NCBI GenBank assembly: GCA_030765805.1
Contig: JAVCDH010000017.1
Span: 2,467 to 66,466, forward strand
Length of the DNA: 64,000 nt
Reading direction: 5' to 3'
Origin: Candidatus Euphemobacter frigidus
Lineage (GTDB): Bacteria > Auribacterota > Erginobacteria > Erginobacterales > Erginobacteraceae
The notes below the pieces were generated by a model. It was not told the DNA's origin. It saw nothing but the letters and a program-made list of their open reading frames with translations, and did no database searches. Positions 1-59,318 of the stretch are shown piece by piece; positions within the stretch are counted from its first letter, which is position 1; every line of letters starts with the position of its first letter. The position numbers and the translations under genes were made by a program.

Positions 1-147
1 GCTCGTATTCAAAGAGACGAAAAAATCACTCAGGTCCTGTTCTTCTCCCTCCTGACGGGTGATCTCAACATTTTTAATAAAAGGAATCTCACTAAAAACG
101 TTTTCCAACATTTGCCTGGATTTCTGTTCTATTTCATTGATTTTCAT
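1..147 (-). CDS. 5' part of a gene running off the window start (MKINEIEQKSRQMLENVFSEIPFIKNVEITRQEGEEQDLSDFFVSLNTS...), possibly another AbiEi-type antitoxin or transcriptional regulator
   Basis: ATG at 147 with AAGGGG about 7 nt upstream and an open frame to base 1. A sigma70 promoter and paired operators lie upstream. The family guess rests on context and a loose N-terminal resemblance only. Confidence 0.45.
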   Translation of the reverse strand, partial: MKINEIEQKSRQMLENVFSEIPFIKNVEITRQEGEEQDLSDFFVSLNTS

Positions 148-158
148 TCTATCGCCCC

Positions 159-178
159 TTTTCAGCGTTTGCTGAAAA
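159..178. promoter_or_regulatory. Palindromic operator TTTTCAGC-N4-GCTGAAAA
   Basis: Perfect 8-bp arms immediately downstream of the -10 box; the same core recurs at 234-253. Confidence 0.6.
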
Positions 179-179
179 G

Positions 180-208
180 AATATACACAGTAAAAACGAT
201 CCCGTCAA
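180..208 (-). promoter_or_regulatory. sigma70-like promoter TTGACG-N17-TATATT with TG extension
   Basis: Read directly on the minus strand, upstream of the ATG at 147. Confidence 0.65.
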
Positions 209-228
209 ATAAAAATTTTCATTAATTA

Positions 229-258
229 AGCCATTTTCAGCAAATGCTGAAAATGGCT
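229..258. promoter_or_regulatory. Palindromic operator AGCCATTTTCAGC-N4-GCTGAAAATGGCT
   Basis: Perfect 13-bp arms with the same core as 159-178. Confidence 0.6.
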
Positions 259-353
259 GTTTCAGTGAAAATTATAAGCCATTACCCCATCATCCTTTAA
301 CTGTTTTTTAACCTTCTATGAATATTTAACAATCGCTTAATTTAGGTAAGATA

Positions 354-497
354 TTAATTTCCGGACATTCTTACACAAGCTTTATCGTGTAATAATCGTG
401 TAAAAATCAGATTAATCATGTAGTTGTAAGAAATGACCTTAATTAAAAGTCTCTGGCGAATAGACGCAGGAATATTTTTATGCCGAGACGGCCTCAC
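354..497 (-). pseudogene. Truncated AbiEii toxin: the first 18 codons (MRPSRHKNIPASIRQRLL) followed by unrelated sequence
   Basis: GTG start overlaps the antitoxin stop (GTGA). The N-terminus aligns with MSSTKRKNIGHSVYQRLL of the intact toxin at 2196. Confidence 0.75.
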
Positions 498-1096
498 GCC
501 AACGCCTCAAGATAGGGGCGCATCACATTTGCCACGCGGCAAATTTTGGCGTTGGACCACAGATCATCCATCGAGCATAGTTTTTCCCTCCTGCACTCGC
601 GCAGAGCCTCCAGAACCACATCAAGTCCAATCTTGTTTCTGTATTTAAAGCAATCGGCAACAGTCTTCGCAACACTATATATTTTTACCGATACTCCTTC
701 TATTTCATGAACTTCAATACCGGCGTTGCGGGCTTCGCCCGAAAAACGAACAATCCTGATCGGAGGATATTTCATTCGGGGTTGCCGATCTTTTTCTCCT
801 ATGGCAATCCAGACCTTGTGAGGAATCTGAGTTCCTATATTATAGAATTGAAGAGCGGAAATAAGGCAGATAACTCCGTCGGGTACTCTCCGCGCGACCT
901 GAGCAAGATCATGATTCTCAGTAATATCAGAATCGGCCCGGATATATACTCCCCTTGAAGCTCTATATAGAAGCCCCTTTTCACAGAGACGGCTGAGATA
1001 AACTCTTGGTATCCCGAACTTATCTAGATCACGAGTCCGAAGAACGCCTTTTTCCCGGGCAAGTTTCAGCAGGTTTTCCGCATGATTCTTTTTCAT
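494..1096 (-). CDS. Type IV TA AbiEi family antitoxin
   Basis: N-terminal wHTH (LYRASRGVY), ICLISALQF, and KTVADCFKYRNKIGLDVVLEAL motifs. Confidence 0.9.
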   Translation of the reverse strand: MKKNHAENLLKLAREKGVLRTRDLDKFGIPRVYLSRLCEKGLLYRASRGVYIRADSDITENHDLAQVARRVPDGVICLISALQFYNIGTQIPHKVWIAIGEKDRQPRMKYPPIRIVRFSGEARNAGIEVHEIEGVSVKIYSVAKTVADCFKYRNKIGLDVVLEALRECRREKLCSMDDLWSNAKICRVANVMRPYLEALA

Positions 1097-1102
1097 AGTG
1101 CC

Positions 1103-1132
1103 ATTATGTTACATATTGCAGGTATTTGTCAA
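1103..1132 (-). promoter_or_regulatory. sigma70-like promoter TTGACA-N18-CATAAT, 6 nt before the ATG (probably leaderless)
   Basis: Read directly; no SD between the -10 box and the start codon. Confidence 0.55.
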
Positions 1133-1372
1133 TATCTCCCGACAATTAGTAACATTTCTTGTATCTATTCCATTATTATCCGAAGAAATATTTTTATCTC
1201 CTCCGGGTCGGTAGTGGATATCTTCAATGAAAAATCAGCGTCAAATCCCTACTACTGACAGAAAATAGACAATTCTTAAACCATCCTCCCCTACTCTTTC
1301 ACACTGATATTCAGCCTCCTCTTTTCGGGAAGGAATTATATATATGGGTGAGAAAAAATGGAAGGGAAAAGA

Positions 1373-1461
1373 AAGTGAGCTGCCGACTTCGCCAAAGTAG
1401 CCTCAGGCTACGACGGCTGAAAAAGTGAACTAAAGTTCGAAGTGAGTTAAAGTGACTAAAG
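1373..1461. repeat. AAGTGA(A)CT tandem repeat with an embedded REP-like palindrome (GTAGCC-TCA-GGCTAC)
   Basis: 1379-1428 is identical to 59109-59158. Confidence 0.85.
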
Positions 1462-1602
1462 AATCTTGCCCCGCAAAATGACCTGCGGTCATCGCGGGGT
1501 AAAAATGCAAAAATCCGTCCCGGCATCGAAAAGCAGAAAAAATTGGTTGCATATCCTTGGTACTTGTCTACAATTACCGAGGATATGCAACTGGAGGGAC
1601 CT

Positions 1603-2199
1603 ATGGATCGGAAAGAAAAAATCATCGAACTTGCCAAGCAGAGAGGGATCATTCGTCCCCGTGATGTCGAGGCGGCGGGGATTCCCCGCGAATACCTTCT
1701 GAGGCTATACCGAAATGGGGAGCTGGTTAGGGTGGGGCGAGGACTCTATGCCATGCCGGAAACGCTGACCAGCGAGTCCATTTCGCTGGCAGAAGTCTCC
1801 AAGAGGGTGCCGACTGCGGTAATCTGCCTGATTTCGGCCCTACAATTTCACGACCTGACAACACAGATTACTAACCGGGTGTGGATAGCCATCGAGAACA
1901 AGAAATGGAAGCCGGTAATCGAATACCCCCCCATCGAGCTTGTACGCCTGACCGGGAAAGCTTTCAACTTCGGCATCGAACAACACGAGGTAAACCGCGT
2001 ACAGGTTAAAGTCTACAGCCCCGCTAAAACAGTTGCCGATTGTTTTAAGTTTCGTAACAAAATCGGACTCGACATCGCACTGGAAGCCCTCCGCGAGACC
2101 TGGAAAAGTCGTAAGGCTTCGATGGACGAACTATGGGAAGCCGCCAAGGTGTGTCGCGTGGCGAATGTTATACGTCCCTATCTGGAAGCGATCACATGA
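1603..2199 (+). CDS. Type IV TA AbiEi family antitoxin
   Basis: Start moved to MDRKEK at 1603 (GGAGG SD upstream). Motifs GELVRVGRGLY, ICLISALQF and KTVADCFKFRNKIGLD. Confidence 0.9.
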   Translation: MDRKEKIIELAKQRGIIRPRDVEAAGIPREYLLRLYRNGELVRVGRGLYAMPETLTSESISLAEVSKRVPTAVICLISALQFHDLTTQITNRVWIAIENKKWKPVIEYPPIELVRLTGKAFNFGIEQHEVNRVQVKVYSPAKTVADCFKFRNKIGLDIALEALRETWKSRKASMDELWEAAKVCRVANVIRPYLEAIT

Positions 2200-3119
2200 G
2201 TTCGACCAAGAGAAAAAACATCGGCCACTCTGTCTATCAACGGCTCTTGAACCACGCAAAGACCCACGGCGATGACTTCAATCTCCTGCTCTTCCGATAC
2301 GGCGTTGAACGCCTTCTCTACCGCCTCAGCATTTCTCCCTTCGCCGATATATTCATTCTGAAGGGTGCAAGTCTGTTCCTCGTATGGAAAGGACAGAACT
2401 ACAGAGTGACCAGGGACGCTGACTTGCTTGGTCTGGGTCCTGTGGACGCAGAAAATATAGCCGATATTTTTAAGGAAATATGCCAGGCCGTCTCTGATGA
2501 TGTTGACGGCATTCAATTCATGCCCGACACCATCAGAGTAGCGCCTATCCGTGAAGAGCATGAGTATGGAGGTATCCGGGTAACGCTCGTGGGTATGCTC
2601 CATCATGCCCGTATACCCCTTCAGATTGACATCGGTTGGGGCGATGCCGTCACACCGGCACCGGAAAAGATCGACTTCCCGACGATTCTGGACGCTCCCA
2701 AACCACATCTTCTGGCGTACCCCCGGTATACGATGGTTGCCGAGAAGCTTGAGACCATGGTGCGACTGGGAATAGCCAACAGTCGGATGAAGGATTTTTT
2801 CGACGTCTGGCTGTTGAGCCGGCTGTTTGAGTTTGACGGCCGAACGCTTTGTGAAGCCGTGCGTAACACCTTCCAGCAACGCTCAACCCTCCTGGCGGCC
2901 GGGTTACCGATGGCTTTTACGGAAGAATTCCGGAAAGATACGCAGAAGCAGACCCAATGGCGGGCATTTATACGTAAGTCAAAACCCAAAACCGAGCCTG
3001 GGGACCTTGATACCGTTATCAGCGAAATATCGGAGTTCTTGCTGCCGGCAATAAAATCGTTGCAGAGAGATGAGATGCTTGAATCGGCCTGGGCGAAGGG
3101 TGGACCCTGTTGGAAGTGA
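2196..3119 (+). CDS. AbiEii/AbiGii nucleotidyltransferase toxin
   Basis: ATGA overlap with the antitoxin. Motifs FILKGASLF, TRDADLL, QIDIGWGD, AEKLETM and SRMKDFFD. Confidence 0.9.
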   Translation: MSSTKRKNIGHSVYQRLLNHAKTHGDDFNLLLFRYGVERLLYRLSISPFADIFILKGASLFLVWKGQNYRVTRDADLLGLGPVDAENIADIFKEICQAVSDDVDGIQFMPDTIRVAPIREEHEYGGIRVTLVGMLHHARIPLQIDIGWGDAVTPAPEKIDFPTILDAPKPHLLAYPRYTMVAEKLETMVRLGIANSRMKDFFDVWLLSRLFEFDGRTLCEAVRNTFQQRSTLLAAGLPMAFTEEFRKDTQKQTQWRAFIRKSKPKTEPGDLDTVISEISEFLLPAIKSLQRDEMLESAWAKGGPCWK

Positions 3120-3164
3120 ACTAAAGTTTGGAACTGGGGAATGGGGAATAGAGAATGGGGAATA
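3114..3164. repeat. AAGTGAACTAAAGTT unit followed by five GGGAAT(G/A)-type heptamers
   Basis: The toxin TGA stop lies inside the first unit, which is identical to 1423-1437. Confidence 0.8.
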
Positions 3165-3231
3165 AATGACGAAATCCGCCCCGCAAATCACGCACCACAG
3201 GGTCACATCACAGATAAAGAAATATTCGCCG

Positions 3232-3268
3232 GGGGATAGATACTCTACATGGAGTCCGGGGCGGAGAC
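3232..3268. repeat. 37-bp direct repeat, a copy of the argS 3' end (att-like)
   Basis: Identical to 4266-4302; imperfect similarity extends about 15 nt further. Confidence 0.9.
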
Positions 3269-3311
3269 CCCACTCGGTCTCGAGATTCTTGATTTCTGAA
3301 TGTTGGATCAT
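3258..3311 (-). pseudogene. N-terminal stub of an AbiEii-type toxin (MIQHSEIKNLETEWGLRP)
   Basis: Starts 4 nt after the antitoxin stop and resembles the MI..EI.....WGLRP..VEKDY toxin N-terminus. The resemblance ends where the argS repeat begins. Confidence 0.65.
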
Positions 3312-3315
3312 CGCA

Positions 3316-4143
3316 TCATTCGCCCGCTCGGAGATTCACATTGACTTCGAGATTCCACCGTCTGAGCAGCTTGCCCCGCATGGACGCAGACGGATCAAGC
3401 TTGGAGTAACCTGCACTGATATTCTTCTCGCAGAACATCACCGTATCGGGGGCGTTGATTCCAAGTGTCTCAATAACATATCCCAGACGCTTGATGGCAG
3501 CTCGATTGTTCAGTTTCTCAAGACATTCGCGTAACTCGTTGTCATCTCTGTGCTCACTATCGAAATACTCGGCTACGAACTCAGCCGCATGTTTCATCCC
3601 TCCACCGAGGCGTGGTGTATTCAGAATGTCCGCAATAGTTCGAGAGGGCGATGAGACAGACAGCTTGATGCTGTTCCGCCAGACCGTGGAAAGAGAGAAC
3701 AGTTTCTTATTTGGAATCGCGGTTATAACATACTTGGTTCCTTTGATAAGAGGCGTTCGGTCGCGCACAGGTGATGATGTGAAGACCACCACGTCCGAGA
3801 AGATTTGTTCTGTCAGTCCCCAATGCTCGGCAGCACTCCAGCCACCAATGTAACAAGGGGAGAAAATAGCGTTCGCGACAATCCAGGGATCTTCACGCCA
3901 CTCTGAAGGGTTACTCGCGTTGAGCGGTACGGTAATGTACGTACCTCGTCGTATTCGCGACAACCAGCCTCTCGACGACCAGTAGCAGAGCAGAGATCTT
4001 GTTTTGGGTCGTGACAGCTCAAGTGTCGCGGCGGCTTCATCTATGCCAAAAGGTGCAGAAAGTGCGCGATGCAGTCGCGACAGAAGCTCTCGATGGTATT
4101 TCGAGATACCCAACAAGTTGTCTCTGGTATATCGTGAGTTCAT
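3316..4143 (-). CDS. Type IV TA AbiEi family antitoxin (long type)
   Basis: Motifs GWLSRIRRGTY, YIGGWSAAEHWGLTEQI, SSPSRTIADIL, KRLGYVIE and RRWNLEVN. Confidence 0.85.
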   Translation of the reverse strand: MNSRYTRDNLLGISKYHRELLSRLHRALSAPFGIDEAAATLELSRPKTRSLLCYWSSRGWLSRIRRGTYITVPLNASNPSEWREDPWIVANAIFSPCYIGGWSAAEHWGLTEQIFSDVVVFTSSPVRDRTPLIKGTKYVITAIPNKKLFSLSTVWRNSIKLSVSSPSRTIADILNTPRLGGGMKHAAEFVAEYFDSEHRDDNELRECLEKLNNRAAIKRLGYVIETLGINAPDTVMFCEKNISAGYSKLDPSASMRGKLLRRWNLEVNVNLRAGE

Positions 4144-4174
4144 TTATCCATACTCCGTCTAAACTAATGCACGT

Positions 4175-4203
4175 AGAATATACCAAACCTATCACAGTGA
4201 CAA
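4175..4203 (-). promoter_or_regulatory. sigma70-like promoter TTGTCA-N17-TATTCT
   Basis: Read directly, upstream of the ATG at 4143. Confidence 0.45.
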
Positions 4204-4265
4204 GCGAAATATAGAAAAAAACAGGAAAAAATAGGAAGCGGGCGATAGAACAAGAATATTCACCC

Positions 4266-4302
4266 GGGGATAGATACTCTACATGGAGTCCGGGGCGGAG
4301 AC
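4266..4302. repeat. 37-bp direct repeat covering the last 7 argS codons, the stop and 13 downstream nt
   Basis: Identical to 3232-3268. Confidence 0.9.
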
Positions 4303-5982
4303 GCCGAGAATAGAGAGGCCTTCGGAGATCACCAGCTGGGTCGCCCGGGCCAGGGCCAGGCGGGCGGCCGTCAGGTCGGGATCATCGGTAATCACCCGGC
4401 AGTGATTGTAGTAGCTGTGGAAGATCGCGGCTAACTCCTCCAGATAGGCGGGGATAAGATGGTTCTGGTGGGTCAGGGCGGCCGTTTTAACCACCCCGGG
4501 GAAGAGAACAAGTTTCTTTATAAGTTCCAGCTCCGCCGGTTCGGAAAGACAGGCGAGATCAATCTTCGTAAAATCCGGCAGGGGGCGGCCGGTCACGGCC
4601 CGGAATTTCTTAAAGATGCTGTTGATGCGGGCGTGGGCGTATTGGACATAATAAACCGGATTGTCGTTTGTCTTCTTCCGGGCCAGTTCAAGATCGAAAT
4701 CAAGATGGCTCTCCTTCCGGCGGCGGACGAAGAAATAGCGGGCGGCGTCCTTGCCTACTTTATCCAGCACCTGTCGGAGAGAGATAAATTCACCCATCCG
4801 GGTGGACATCGAGAGCTTCTTCTTCCCCTCATAGAGCGTGGAGAGCTGGACAATGATAATATCCAGACGAGCGGGATTCAATCCCAGGGCTTTCATGGCT
4901 CCCTTCAGCCGGGCGATATAACCGTGATGATCGGGCCCCCAGAAGTCAATCATCTCTGAATAGCCCCTCCCGTACTTCTCCCGGTGATAGGCGATATCCG
5001 AACTGATATAGGTCAGATCGCCGTTTTTCTTTCTCAGGACGCGATCTTTCTCATCTCCATACGCCGATGAGCGAAACCAGAGAGCCCCGTCCTTTTCATA
5101 AGTGCTCCCCCGGGCCGCCAGGTCCCGTAAGACAGCCGTCACTCTACCTTCCGCCACCAGTTCGCTCTCACTCACCCAGGTCTCCATCTCGACACCGAAA
5201 TCCCTTAATTCTTTTTTGATCATCTCCAGCAACGCGCCGGAGGCGAAGGTGCCGCAGTAATCGATTGCCTCTTCCGGGGGTAGCTCGGACAATTCTCTTC
5301 CAGCCGGTTTCAGTCCTCCTTCCAGGATCCGGCGGGCCAGGCCGATGATGTAATCGCCCTGATAATAATCGGCCGGAAGATCAACTTCTTCGCCCCTCAA
5401 TTCACGCCAGCGCAGATAGACCGACTCTCCCAGGATCTTCATCTGGCGCCCGCGATCGTTCAGATAGTACTCCCGGGAGACCCGGTAACCGGCTTTGGCC
5501 AGGAGATTCGCCAGAACGTCCCCCACCGCCGCCTGCCGGCCGTGAGCCACAGTGAGCGGGCCGGTGGGGTTGGCGCTGACAAACTCCAGCAAGACCTTCT
5601 CCCCTTCCCCGGCTCTACTCTCCCCCCAATGTCCGGGAACTCGCAGAAGATGCCGGAGGGCGTCATGGAAGGCGCCCGGGGTAACTGTGAAGTTGAGAAA
5701 ACCCTTGCGGGGGTCGGCTTCCACCCGGGAGATGATCGTCTTCCGGCTGATCCGTTTCTCTATCAGGGAGGCAATGATCTTGGCCGTCTCAACCGGGGAG
5801 CGCTTTACCCGGGAGGCCACCTTCATCGCGATATTTGAGGCCAGATCACCATGCCCTTTCTCCCGGGGAATCTTAAGCTCGACTGAAGGCAGAGAGACGG
5901 GGGGAAGCAAGTTTTGAGCGGCTGCTTCCCGGAAAGCATTTCCGATCAACTCCGAGATACGATCGTTGATCTCAGGCAGCAT
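4279..5982 (-). CDS. argS: Arginine--tRNA ligase
   Basis: Motifs LEFVSANPTGPLTVAHGR, MSTRMGEF and YYVQYAHARI. Confidence 0.97.
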   Translation of the reverse strand: MLPEINDRISELIGNAFREAAAQNLLPPVSLPSVELKIPREKGHGDLASNIAMKVASRVKRSPVETAKIIASLIEKRISRKTIISRVEADPRKGFLNFTVTPGAFHDALRHLLRVPGHWGESRAGEGEKVLLEFVSANPTGPLTVAHGRQAAVGDVLANLLAKAGYRVSREYYLNDRGRQMKILGESVYLRWRELRGEEVDLPADYYQGDYIIGLARRILEGGLKPAGRELSELPPEEAIDYCGTFASGALLEMIKKELRDFGVEMETWVSESELVAEGRVTAVLRDLAARGSTYEKDGALWFRSSAYGDEKDRVLRKKNGDLTYISSDIAYHREKYGRGYSEMIDFWGPDHHGYIARLKGAMKALGLNPARLDIIIVQLSTLYEGKKKLSMSTRMGEFISLRQVLDKVGKDAARYFFVRRRKESHLDFDLELARKKTNDNPVYYVQYAHARINSIFKKFRAVTGRPLPDFTKIDLACLSEPAELELIKKLVLFPGVVKTAALTHQNHLIPAYLEELAAIFHSYYNHCRVITDDPDLTAARLALARATQLVISEGLSILGVSAPDSM

Positions 5983-6971: not shown

Positions 6972-7027
6972 CTTCAGTTCACTTCAGTCACTTTAGTTCA
7001 CTTCGAACTTTAGTCACTTTACTTCAC
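6972..7027. repeat. ACTT(T/C)AG(T)TC tandem repeat
   Basis: About six degenerate 8-9-mer units; the proA TGA stop is in the last unit. Confidence 0.8.
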
Positions 7028-41225: not shown

Positions 41226-41337
41226 ACTTTAGTCACCCTCCTTCGCTATTACATAGCTACGGCGGGTAAACTTTAGTCACTTTAGCTCACTTTAGTCACT
41301 TTAGTTCACTTTAGTCACTTTAGTCACTTCACTTCAC
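41226..41337. repeat. ACTTTAG(T/C)TC tandem array with an embedded REP-like unit
   Basis: Contains the reverse complement of the right part of 52331-52468; the ribBA TGA stop is in the last unit. Confidence 0.85.
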
Positions 41338-52330: not shown

Positions 52331-52468
52331 AAGTGACTAAAGTGAACTTCCGCCTTCGCTAGCCTCCTTCGCCATAGTAGCCTATGGCTACGGCGGCTGA
52401 AAAGCTACGGCGGATAAAAAAGTTTACCCGCCGTAGCTATGTAATAGCGAAGGAGGGTGACTAAAGTT
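52331..52468. repeat. 138-bp composite of tandem repeats and nested REP-like palindromes, copy 1
   Basis: Differs from 54496-54633 at two positions. Confidence 0.92.
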
Positions 52469-54495: not shown

Positions 54496-54633
54496 AAGTG
54501 ACTAAAGTGAGCTTCCGCCTTCGCTAGCCTCCTTCGCCAAAGTAGCCTATGGCTACGGCGGCTGAAAAGCTACGGCGGATAAAAAAGTTTACCCGCCGTA
54601 GCTATGTAATAGCGAAGGAGGGTGACTAAAGTT
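54496..54633. repeat. 138-bp composite repeat, copy 2
   Basis: Direct repeat of 52331-52468; abuts the acyl-CoA dehydrogenase stop. Confidence 0.92.
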
Positions 54634-59090: not shown

Positions 59091-59318
59091 TTGAAGTGCC
59101 TAAAGTGTGCTGCCGACTTCGCCAAAGTAGCCTCAGGCTACGACGGCTGAAAAAGTGACTAAAGTTAAATTACCTCATTGTGACGCTCTGTGTCGAATGT
59201 TGAACGTTGGACGTTGAAAGTTGAGCGTTGAACGTTCATCCCTTCCAACTTTAGTCACTTTAGTTCACTTTAGTCACTTTAGTCACTTTAGTTCACTTTA
59301 GCTCACTTTAGACACTTC
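59091..59318. repeat. Composite intergenic element: AAGTG arm with REP unit, GTTGAAC array, inverted ACTTTAGTC array
   Basis: 59109-59158 is identical to 1379-1428; heptamers at 59192-59239; array at 59247-59318. Confidence 0.87.

What the first reader, a model, noticed from the sequence alone, without database searches (positions are those of the whole stretch)
1..4302. AbiE antitoxin stockpile downstream of argS: three or four antitoxins but one live toxin
Seen: three intact AbiEi genes (494, 1603, 3316), a possible fourth at the window edge, one intact AbiEii toxin and two toxin stubs, packed against the argS 3' end in mixed orientations. Known: AbiEii/MenT toxins are nucleotidyltransferases, and characterised MenT members modify tRNA 3' ends; type IV antitoxins do not need to bind the toxin stably. 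Inference: this is a repeatedly used integration hotspot where toxins are lost and antitoxins kept, possibly as anti-addiction immunity against incoming AbiE elements.
Basis: partly seen in the sequence, partly recalled or inferred. Interest (0 to 1): 0.75.

Follow-up and report, generated by a model that had tools for sequence, protein, structure and literature searches.

The report
AbiE toxin-antitoxin islet beside argS
Next to the arginyl-tRNA synthetase gene of an uncultured salt-lake bacterium sit four horizontally acquired AbiE toxin-antitoxin modules; two are complete and two have lost almost all of their toxin gene but keep an intact antitoxin, a tidy example of a known kind of decay rather than a new system.

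Summary
Window 1-4302 holds three intact AbiEi antitoxin genes: A (494-1096, minus strand), B (1603-2199, plus strand) and C (3316-4143, minus strand). It also holds one intact AbiEii toxin (2196-3119) and the first 49 codons of a fourth antitoxin at the edge.

Identical metagenome contigs extend the window. They show that the edge gene is a 352-aa AbiEi_2 protein overlapping a 292-aa probable nucleotidyltransferase. The tally is therefore four antitoxins to two probably live toxins, not one.

The two "stubs" are much shorter than the ORFs suggest, about 18 and 17 toxin codons. Stub C is fused through an 8-nt microhomology to a roughly 45-nt duplicate of the argS 3' end. This shows one insertion or deletion event at argS. 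It is not proof of a repeatedly used att site: I found no integrase, no tRNA gene and no further att copies.

Both orphan antitoxins are intact, keep promoter and operator signals, and show dN/dS of 0.1-0.25. Close relatives of antitoxin A carry differently broken toxins in two other genomic contexts. Every close relative of antitoxin C has an intact AbiEii-WYL toxin.

"Toxins lost, antitoxins kept" is supported. The anti-addiction idea is untested and already exists in the literature. This is an ordinary member of a known kind, with modest interest.

The parts
1..147 (-). Module D antitoxin, first 49 codons of a 352-aa AbiEi_2 protein. The rest of the gene, and its overlapping 292-aa probable nucleotidyltransferase toxin, lie beyond the window edge.
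   Evidence: Contig L001 is identical to the window. L001:10950-12008 matches PF09952 at 7e-16. L001:12002-12880 matches PF08843 at E 2e-4.
159..253 (.). Two palindromes, TTTTCAGC-N4-GCTGAAAA, at 159-178 and 234-253. They bracket a promoter-like site (208->180, minus strand) upstream of module D and are candidate operators.
443..497 (-). Remnant of module A toxin, about 18 codons (VRPSRHKNIPASIRQRLL). The start codon overlaps the antitoxin stop codon.
   Evidence: About 90% nucleotide identity to L015, L017 and L027 ends at 432-443. L027 and L015 continue as a genuine AbiEii N-terminus.
494..1096 (-). AbiEi_A, an intact orphan antitoxin of 200 aa.
   Evidence: PF13338 4e-14; PADLOC AbiEi 2.7e-90; S. 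agalactiae AbiEi structure 6Y8Q 4.6e-11; dN/dS 0.12-0.24 against L015 and L017.
1103..1155 (-). Promoter-like site of AbiEi_A (TTGACA-18-CATAAT, 11 of 12 matches) lying within the inverted repeat ATGTTAC...GTAACAT. The region is nearly identical in L015 and L017.
1372..1505 (.). Host-type dispersed repeats between modules A and B: a 40-66-nt REP-like unit (1372-1437), CTAAAGTGA decamer repeats (1423-1460) and a strong hairpin (1466-1502).
   Evidence: Further copies lie elsewhere in the window. Depth is 10-100 times higher in metagenomes. The hairpin fold has z = -4.5.
1546..1591 (+). Inverted repeat with 22-nt arms immediately upstream of AbiEi_B. It is a candidate autoregulatory operator, and its half-site ATATGCAAC resembles ATATGTAAC in module A.
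1603..2199 (+). AbiEi_B, an antitoxin of 198 aa, 55% identical to AbiEi_A.
2196..3119 (+). AbiEii_B, an intact DUF1814 nucleotidyltransferase toxin of 307 aa. It overlaps AbiEi_B by 4 nt.
   Evidence: PF08843 1.7e-42; PADLOC 1e-110; PDB 9hlo_B 1e-31; full-length alignment with conserved motifs.
3221..3268 (-). Duplicate of the argS 3' end: the last 7 codons, the stop codon and about 24 nt downstream.
   Evidence: 48 of 51 nt identical to 4255-4305, and the 37-nt core is exact. No such match occurred in 100 shuffles.
3261..3311 (-). Remnant of module C toxin, 17 codons (MIQHSEIKNLETEWGLR). It is joined to the argS-end copy within the 8-nt microhomology GTCTCCGC.
   Evidence: The remnant matches the N-terminus of the AbiEii-WYL toxins of L019 and L025 exactly, apart from the GTG start codon of L019, and differs from those of L018 and L020 at one residue each. 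The 5-nt spacing after the antitoxin stop codon is the same as in L018, L019, L020, L025 and L026.
3316..4143 (-). AbiEi_C, an intact orphan antitoxin of 275 aa. Homology to the paired modules runs on through its upstream region to about 4214.
   Evidence: PF09407 1e-5; PADLOC 6e-78; 76-88% identical to five paired homologues; no excess of nonsynonymous change.
4255..4305 (-). Original argS 3' end, the other copy of the direct repeat.
4279..5982 (-). argS (arginine-tRNA ligase), the last gene of the conserved block obg-proB-proA-nadD-rsfS-argS.

Best explanation
This is a small, horizontally acquired toxin-antitoxin (defence) islet at the 3' flank of argS in a Candidatus Auribacterota-like bacterium from salt lakes. 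It is built from four AbiE-family modules of three subfamilies.

**Complete modules.** Module B is complete. Module D, which lies partly outside the window, is probably complete. By homology these should work as described for AbiE and MenAT. The DUF1814 nucleotidyltransferase toxin adds nucleotides to tRNA 3' ends and stops translation. The AbiEi protein represses its own promoter through an inverted-repeat operator, binds the toxin and induces its inactivating auto-phosphorylation.

**Orphan modules.** Modules A and C are intermediates of toxin-first decay. Deletions removed all but 17-18 toxin codons, which is the only order of loss a cell can survive. In C, the deletion or capture joint lies in an 8-nt microhomology between toxin codons 15-17 and the argS 3' end. 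The remaining antitoxin genes are still intact, autoregulated wHTH proteins.

**Shown:** gene content, intactness, junctions, foreign composition, purifying selection over the measured divergence, and fixation of the arrangement in the population.

**Inferred:** biochemical activity, expression, and any present function of the orphans.
For: - Family assignments and intactness.
- Fourth module and its toxin: on a contig identical to the window.
- Stub A limits. Stub C limits and the base-level junction.
- All five close AbiEi_C homologues are paired with an intact 391-475-aa AbiEii-WYL toxin, so C lost its toxin.
- AbiEi_A-lineage genes (90-94% identical) sit in other contexts with differently damaged toxins. 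L015/L016 has 77 codons ending just before the DxD motif. L017 has 19 codons fused to the C-terminal 70. The toxin in L027 reads open for the 49 codons before that contig ends.
- dN/dS is 0.12-0.24 for A and 0.09-0.18 for C. The window C branch has 11 synonymous and 9 nonsynonymous changes, against 32 and 19 in the paired sister.
- GC3 is 0.43-0.61 against 0.67-0.74 for housekeeping genes.
- Six independent assemblies carry the locus at 99.8-100% identity.
- Operator-like inverted repeats and promoter-like sites lie upstream of A, B and D.
- Mechanism from the literature: PMC7450476, PMC10435456, PMC11375011 and bioRxiv 10.64898/2026.01.19.700257.
Against: - No expression data exist. The candidate runs held only related sequences.
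- The D toxin is assigned on a sub-threshold Pfam score, weak PADLOC hits, motif reading and operon structure only.
- Low dN/dS is averaged over divergence that may largely predate toxin loss. It does not show that the orphans are maintained now, and it does not exclude a selected new role either.
- Three of four independent toxin breaks fall at codons 17-19. Purely random deletion does not obviously predict that.
Confidence: 0.6

Rival explanations
1. The orphan antitoxins are kept by selection as standing immunity (anti-addiction, or protection against incoming AbiE-bearing elements), or as extra regulators and neutralisers of the resident B toxin.
For: - Both orphans are intact, with low dN/dS and few lineage-specific changes at conserved positions.
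- The promoter and operator of A are almost unchanged in three orphan copies.
- A and B share 55% identity, the same loop (TQI) at the position of the S. agalactiae AbiEi D85-E86-I87 loop needed for antitoxicity, and similar operator half-sites (bioRxiv 10.64898/2026.01.19.700257).
- Close alleles of the A module (94%, with the toxin N-terminus open as far as the contig runs) and of AbiEi_C occur in the same lakes.
- The A lineage was found orphaned in three contexts.
- The arrangement is fixed across samples.
Against: - There is no functional or expression evidence.
- The selection signal cannot be dated relative to toxin loss.
- Toxin-first decay predicts the same picture without any benefit.
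- Toxin-antitoxin pairs are usually insulated against cross-talk.
- All five close AbiEi_C relatives are paired, so orphan C is a one-off.
- Orphan antitoxins are common in genomes generally (PMC7192599).
Confidence: 0.25
2. The argS 3' end is an att site for an integrase-borne island. Module C is the cargo end of such an island. A later deletion, running from toxin codon 17 into attR, removed the toxin body, the rest of the island and the integrase. Other modules arrived by repeated use of the same site.
For: - A direct repeat of the last 7 argS codons plus about 24 nt brackets a 983-bp segment holding AbiEi_C and keeps argS intact. This is the classic signature of integration into a gene's 3' end.
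- Synteny with relatives ends exactly at argS.
Against: - No integrase or recombinase lies in the 4.3 kb or in the 2.5 kb beyond the window.
- There are only two copies of the repeat. None flanks modules A, B or D.
- The inner end of the repeat coincides with an 8-nt microhomology inside the toxin gene. A single microhomology-mediated capture or template switch that copied the antitoxin plus 17 toxin codons explains this equally well, and then the toxin may never have been present.
- The att core was absent from the viral and metagenome collections searched.
- Host-type dispersed repeats separate the modules.
Confidence: 0.3
3. The arrangement is an assembly chimera or mis-join of several community AbiE loci.
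For: - AbiE modules and the intervening repeats are multi-copy in these metagenomes. Divergent alleles of A and C are present in the same samples.
Against: - Six contigs from different ENA and JGI assemblies carry the same order at 99.8-100% identity, running from argS through module D.
- Logan contigs of run X1 tile the region with no differences.
Confidence: 0.02

Closest known systems
AbiE (AbiEi/AbiEii) of Streptococcus agalactiae and Lactococcus, and the MenAT systems of Mycobacterium tuberculosis (COG5340 antitoxin with a DUF1814 nucleotidyltransferase toxin)
   Same: - Module B has the canonical layout. A wHTH AbiEi gene overlaps by 4 nt a PF08843 toxin that keeps the conserved nucleotidyltransferase motifs.
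- An inverted repeat sits upstream.
- AbiEi_A and AbiEii_B match the solved AbiEi:AbiEii complex 9HLO, AbiEi_A on chain A at 4e-11 and AbiEii_B on chain B at 1e-31.
   Different: - Sequence identity to the characterised proteins is low.
- Four modules of three subfamilies are packed together, and two lack a toxin.
- Activity, tRNA target and phage defence are untested here.
Orphan (solo) antitoxins and the anti-addiction hypothesis (chromosomal ccd of Erwinia, from my own knowledge; Klebsiella survey PMC7192599)
   Same: Intact antitoxin genes sit beside toxin remnants, in a chromosome, next to complete related modules.
   Different: - These orphans are large AbiEi-type wHTH antitoxins rather than small type II antitoxins.
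- No protection assay exists for them.
AbiEii-WYL fusion toxins paired with 275-aa AbiEi (PADLOC PDLC02317 and PDLC02271)
   Same: AbiEi_C and the 17-codon remnant belong to this subfamily.
   Different: In the window the whole toxin body, including the WYL domain, is gone.
Genomic islands integrated in the 3' end of a housekeeping or tRNA gene
   Same: The target gene's 3' end is duplicated as a direct repeat, and the gene stays intact.
   Different: - There is no integrase.
- The segment between the repeats is only 983 bp.
- One repeat boundary is a microhomology joint within a gene.

Membership tests
AbiE / MenAT toxin-antitoxin (abortive infection) system | Antitoxin of the AbiEi (COG5340) type: an N-terminal winged helix-turn-helix plus a C-terminal domain | tested here: met
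   - A and B: PF13338 at 4e-14 and 2e-15; PADLOC AbiEi near 1e-90.
- C: PF09407 1e-5 plus PF13338 2e-4; PADLOC 6e-78.
- D: PF09952 7e-16.

AbiE / MenAT toxin-antitoxin (abortive infection) system | DUF1814 (PF08843) nucleotidyltransferase toxin with conserved catalytic motifs | tested here: met
   - Met for B: 1.7e-42, with GAS...RVTRDAD, EKLE and KDFFDVW all retained.
- Borderline for D: 21.7 bits against a cut-off of 22.5, with GG...STDVD and KDAYDIY motifs read directly.
- Not met for A and C, which keep only 18 and 17 codons.
AbiE / MenAT toxin-antitoxin (abortive infection) system | Bicistronic operon, antitoxin first, with genes overlapping or a few nucleotides apart | tested here: met
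   - B overlaps by 4 nt and D by 7 nt.
- The remnant start codons of A (overlapping the antitoxin stop) and C (5 nt after it) are in the canonical positions.

AbiE / MenAT toxin-antitoxin (abortive infection) system | Negative autoregulation through inverted repeats in the promoter | tested here: inconclusive
   Inverted repeats lie upstream of B (22-nt arms), A (13-nt arms around a -35 box) and D (two palindromes). None was found upstream of C. Binding was not tested.
AbiE / MenAT toxin-antitoxin (abortive infection) system | Toxin arrests growth, the cognate antitoxin neutralises it (by induced auto-phosphorylation), and the system defends against phage | not testable with these tools
   This needs expression and phage assays. 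The mechanism is taken from PMC11375011 and bioRxiv 10.64898/2026.01.19.700257.
Integrase-mediated genomic island at a gene 3' end | Direct repeats (attL and attR) derived from the target gene's 3' end | tested here: met
   3221-3271 against 4255-4305: 48 of 51 nt, with an exact 37-nt core and no such match in 100 shuffles.
Integrase-mediated genomic island at a gene 3' end | A tyrosine or serine recombinase within the element | tested here: not met
   None lies between the repeats, in window 1-4302, or in the 2.5 kb beyond the edge. The far side is unreadable because every contig ends at an ORF6N fragment.
Integron cassette array | attC recombination sites bounding co-oriented cassettes, next to an intI gene | tested here: not met
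   The repeats flanking module B are genome-wide decamer and REP-like repeats found in ordinary intergenic regions. The modules have mixed orientation, and there is no intI gene.

The most novel reading that the evidence does not exclude
Solo AbiEi antitoxins are a selected state rather than debris. After recurrent removal of the toxin at its first 17-19 codons, they would persist as autoregulated proteins that trigger inactivating auto-phosphorylation of related AbiEii toxins. Those toxins could be the resident B toxin or cognate toxins arriving on mobile elements circulating in the same lakes. This would give the cell immunity to AbiE-based addiction or abortive killing.
Probability: 0.15. 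Interest if true: 0.6.

Novelty: new member of a known kind. Interest (0 to 1): 0.3.

Why it matters
The locus gives a clean, base-level snapshot of how large AbiE-type toxin-antitoxin modules decay, with the toxin going first and the antitoxin left intact. It also shows how such modules pile up beside a housekeeping gene in a poorly known phylum.

It offers a ready-made natural panel for testing the specificity of the recently proposed antitoxin-induced auto-phosphorylation mechanism. The panel holds two A/B-type antitoxins that are 55% identical, one toxin of that type, and two further subfamilies.

It does not reveal a new kind of system.

Tried and rejected
1. **15-nt direct repeat around module B.** The exact repeat AAGTGAACTAAAGTT flanks module B (1423 and 3114) and looked like a target duplication. 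I rejected this. The motif is part of genome-wide intergenic decamer arrays, with 9 copies in the window including between nadD and proA.
2. **Contig "joints" skipping module B.** The joints 1445->3109 and 1461->3135 have only 20-22 nt on one side and lie in those repeats. They are not evidence for an allele lacking B.
3. **ORF 2979-3311 as a 110-aa toxin stub.** It has no family hit, and only 17 codons are genuine.
4. **ORF 1311-1652 (-).** It has no hits and overlaps the repeat region, so I treat it as spurious.
5. **Searches for the att core.** The core gave zero hits in both the viral and the metagenome collections.
6. **argS relatives in the metagenome collection.** Only distant relatives (26-29% identity) were found, so there was no close-strain comparison.
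7. **Genome collection.** The nearest ArgS proteins are 71% and 67% identical. They have a sulfatase and an IS200-like gene, or an amidohydrolase and ABC transporter, downstream. These are too distant to test a hotspot.
8. **Profile comparison of the D toxin with the B family.** This was uninformative. NCBIfam and PHROGs gave nothing for module D.
9. **RNA evidence.** The candidate runs contained only related alleles and repeats.
10. **Plasmid search.** Only 68-70% matches to annotated AbiEii genes were found.

Full report
**1. What is in the sequence**

ORF listing and family scans place the following, from left to right.

- The first 49 codons of a gene reading out of the window (147->1, minus strand).
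- AbiEi_A, 494-1096 (minus strand), 200 aa: PF13338 4e-14; PADLOC AbiEi 3e-90.
- AbiEi_B, 1603-2199 (plus strand), 198 aa: PF13338 2e-15.
- AbiEii_B, 2196-3119 (plus strand), 307 aa, overlapping AbiEi_B by 4 nt: PF08843 1.7e-42; PADLOC 1e-110.
- AbiEi_C, 3316-4143 (minus strand), 275 aa: PF09407 1e-5; PADLOC 6e-78.
- argS, 4279-5982 (minus strand): TIGR00456 7e-122.

AbiEi_A and AbiEi_B are 55% identical. AbiEii_B is full length against more than 100 homologues of 64-75% identity. It keeps the conserved blocks KGASLF, RVTRDADLL, DIGWGD, AEKLE and NSRMKDFFDVW. It matches chain B of the solved AbiEi:AbiEii complex 9HLO at 1e-31. AbiEi_A matches S. agalactiae AbiEi (6Y8Q and 9HLO_A) at 4e-11. There is no tRNA gene in the window. 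There is no second AbiEii-like sequence anywhere in the 64 kb (tblastn).

**2. The window edge hides a second complete pair**

The exact AbiEi_A protein occurs on 22 metagenome contigs. Six were fetched. L001 is identical to the window over 6500 nt, and window position 1 corresponds to L001 position 11096.

On these contigs the edge gene is a 352-aa AbiEi_2 protein (PF09952 7e-16). It overlaps by 7 nt a 292-aa ORF. That ORF scores 21.7 bits on PF08843 (E 2e-4, cut-off 22.5). It gives weak PADLOC AbiEii hits. It carries nucleotidyltransferase-like motifs that I read directly from the sequence: IVGGW...GSTDVDMV and MKGMALADRENEKDAYDIY. The second of these is the only stretch a small toxin profile recognises.

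I call it a probable live toxin. The real tally is therefore four antitoxins and two probably intact toxins. All contigs stop about 690 bp further on, at a fragment of an ORF6N domain, so the far boundary of the islet is unknown.

**3. The stubs**

*Stub A.* Three loci carry AbiEi_A-lineage genes of 90-94% identity. About 90% nucleotide identity to the window covers the promoter, the antitoxin and the first 18-21 codons of the downstream gene, and then stops at window 432-443 in every case.

- In L027 the downstream gene continues as a good AbiEii N-terminus to the contig end (49 aa).
- In L015 and L016 it continues for 77 codons and breaks just before the catalytic DxD.
- In L017 codon 19 is fused to the last 70 or so codons.

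So the window keeps only about 18 toxin codons (497->443). The rest of the 47-aa ORF is unrelated read-through.

*Stub C.* The five closest AbiEi_C homologues (76-88% identical) are each followed, 5 nt after the stop codon, by an intact 391-475-aa AbiEii-WYL fusion toxin. The first 17 residues in the window, MIQHSEIKNLETEWGLR, are those of the L019 and L025 toxins, and the L018 and L020 toxins differ from them at one residue each.

At base level the toxin sequence ...GAGTGGGGTCTCCGC runs straight into CCCGGACTCCATGTAG. That is the end of argS (codons VSAPDSM and the stop codon), followed by about 24 nt of argS-downstream sequence. The joint lies in the 8-nt microhomology GTCTCCGC, which the toxin and argS share. 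The rest of the 110-aa ORF is an out-of-frame artefact.

**4. The argS-end duplication**

Positions 3221-3271 and 4255-4305 form a direct repeat of 48 of 51 nt, with an exact 37-nt core. No such match occurred in 100 shuffles. It brackets 983 bp holding only AbiEi_C, its upstream region and the 17-codon remnant, and argS stays intact. This is real evidence for an event at the argS 3' end. Two histories fit.

- **Island plus deletion.** An integrase-borne island entered with attL and attR. A deletion then ran from toxin codon 17 into attR.
- **One-step capture.** A single microhomology-mediated capture or template switch copied the antitoxin plus 17 toxin codons and re-entered argS about 50 nt upstream. 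In that case the C toxin may never have been in this genome.

Several observations bear on this.

- No recombinase gene is visible.
- No other module is flanked by the repeat.
- The att core is absent from the collections I could scan.
- The modules are separated by host-type dispersed repeats.

I therefore regard "repeatedly used integration hotspot" as not shown. The nearest available genomes (ArgS 71% and 67% identical; Ca. Erginobacter occultus, phylum Ca. Auribacterota) have unrelated genes downstream of argS. The one locus that shows the upstream side (L008) has ORFs of nadD and rsfS size upstream of argS, which I did not annotate. This shows that argS marks a synteny break, but these genomes are too distant for more.

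**5. Foreign origin and fixation**

GC3 of the AbiE genes is 0.43 for A, 0.50-0.56 for D, 0.54 for C and 0.60 for B. Values for argS, nadD, proA and proB are 0.67-0.74. This is consistent with several separate acquisitions.

Homology of the A-type and C-type modules to copies in quite different contexts ends sharply at the module edges. Those contexts include ahpC, RadC with type I restriction-modification genes, and sulfatase genes. The modules therefore travel as small cassettes.

The whole arrangement is 99.8-100% identical in six assemblies from different samples of salt-lake metagenomes. It is neither an assembly artefact nor visibly polymorphic.

**6. Are the orphans decaying?**

I found no sign of it.

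- AbiEi_A against its two orphan relatives gives dN/dS of 0.12-0.24 at dS 0.20-0.44.
- AbiEi_C against its paired relatives gives dN/dS of 0.09-0.18.
- By parsimony, the window's own C branch has 11 synonymous and 9 nonsynonymous changes. The paired sister branch has 32 and 19, so there is no detectable relaxation, on small numbers.
- The window C protein has only 3 private changes at positions conserved in the other five sequences, fewer than any of them.
- The A promoter and operator (TTGACA-18-CATAAT inside the inverted repeat ATGTTAC...GTAACAT) are nearly identical in the three orphan copies.

The caveat is that these ratios average over time when the toxin may still have been present. They cannot separate "recently orphaned" from "maintained".

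**7. How it most likely works**

By homology, B and probably D are working AbiE/MenAT-type modules.

- The nucleotidyltransferase toxin extends tRNA 3' ends and blocks translation (PMC7450476, PMC10435456).
- The antitoxin represses its own promoter through inverted repeats. Candidates are 1546-1591 for B and two TTTTCAGC-N4-GCTGAAAA palindromes for D.
- The antitoxin neutralises the toxin by inducing auto-phosphorylation (PMC11375011).
- For S. agalactiae AbiE this involves binding of AbiEi to AbiEii, and that system has been reclassified as type VII (bioRxiv 10.64898/2026.01.19.700257).

A and C are best read as toxin-first decay products.

Cross-talk between A and B is conceivable, for three reasons:

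- the two antitoxins belong to the same subfamily;
- both carry T-Q-I at the position of the functionally important D85-E86-I87 loop;
- their operator half-sites are similar, ATATGTAAC against ATATGCAAC.

It remains untested. Related A-type and C-type alleles, in other contexts and at equal or higher depth, occur in the same lakes. One of them (L027) has a toxin N-terminus that reads open as far as its contig runs. The ecological setting for an immunity role therefore exists, but nothing shows that such a role is used.

**8. Comparison and verdict**

The components are ordinary members of the AbiE family, including the AbiEii-WYL and AbiEi_2 subfamilies. Orphan antitoxins and the anti-addiction idea are established (PMC7192599). 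Small defence or toxin-antitoxin islets are common.

The mildly unusual points are these.

- Four modules of three subfamilies are packed into about 7 kb.
- The junction of a toxin gene to a duplicated argS end is resolved to the base.
- One AbiEi lineage is found with three differently broken toxins.
- Three of four toxin breaks lie at codons 17-19.

Novelty: new member of a known kind. Interest: 0.3.

Noticed in passing
window 1372-1437; also 59102-59166, 54532-54568, 52367-52403: A 40-66-nt REP-like dispersed repeat, GCCGACTTCGCCAAAGTAGCCTCAGGCTACGACGGCTGAA. The copy at 59112 is exact. In lake metagenomes its word depth is 10 to over 1000 times that of its flanks, and the flanks differ on both sides in every copy.
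   Followed up: partly
window 1423-1460, 3114-3128, 6986-7014, 41271-41311, 59257-59308: Tandem decamer arrays (CTAAAGTGAA/G-like) occur in ordinary intergenic regions: 9 motif hits against 0.02 expected. One array overlaps the AbiEii_B stop codon. Their function is unknown.
   Followed up: partly
window 1466-1502: A strong hairpin, CCCCGCAAAATGACCTGCGGTCATCGCGGGG (-23 kcal/mol, z = -4.5). It occurs once in the window but at high copy in the metagenomes, where contig ends cluster at 1468-1472 and 1504-1506.
   Followed up: partly
window 1277-1342 (-): A sub-threshold Rfam match to DUF3800-X RNA (30.5 bits against a gathering score of 38.2, E 0.0025), between modules A and B.
   Followed up: no
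L001 13340-13450 (about 2.3 kb left of window position 1): A fragment of an ORF6N domain (…LYGVPTKVLNQAVRR…). All six contigs end within about 40 bp of each other shortly after it, which suggests a multi-copy element. L017 has a full 185-aa ORF6N gene next to its AbiE pair.
   Followed up: partly
L018:1462-2883, L019:1641-2933, L020:2771-4198, L025:1439-2614: The toxins cognate to AbiEi_C-type antitoxins are AbiEii-WYL fusions. The longer ones end in a Cys-rich tail (CxxCGKRF...HKDKSGWDCxGRTGY). A WYL sensor domain fused to a nucleotidyltransferase toxin may merit its own study.
   Followed up: no
window 443-497 and 3261-3311; L017 about 3045-3100: Three independent toxin deletions leave 17-19 codons. 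The fourth (L015) leaves 77, ending just before the DxD motif. This could be chance, selection to remove the catalytic N-terminal half, or a constraint from the antitoxin 3' end.
   Followed up: partly
window 3285-4189 and 444-1193 in runs X4, X10 and X13: Divergent alleles (about 90-95% identical) of AbiEi_C and AbiEi_A occur in the same lakes, at equal or 2-4 times higher depth, apparently in other genomic contexts.
   Followed up: partly
L015 14823-15745 and 17385-20603; L018 2891-7174: Other loci with these AbiE lineages carry a second AbiEi next to a truncated 104-aa AbiEii (L015), and RadC plus type I restriction-modification genes (L015 and L018). They look like defence-island neighbourhoods in which AbiE decay recurs.
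   Followed up: no
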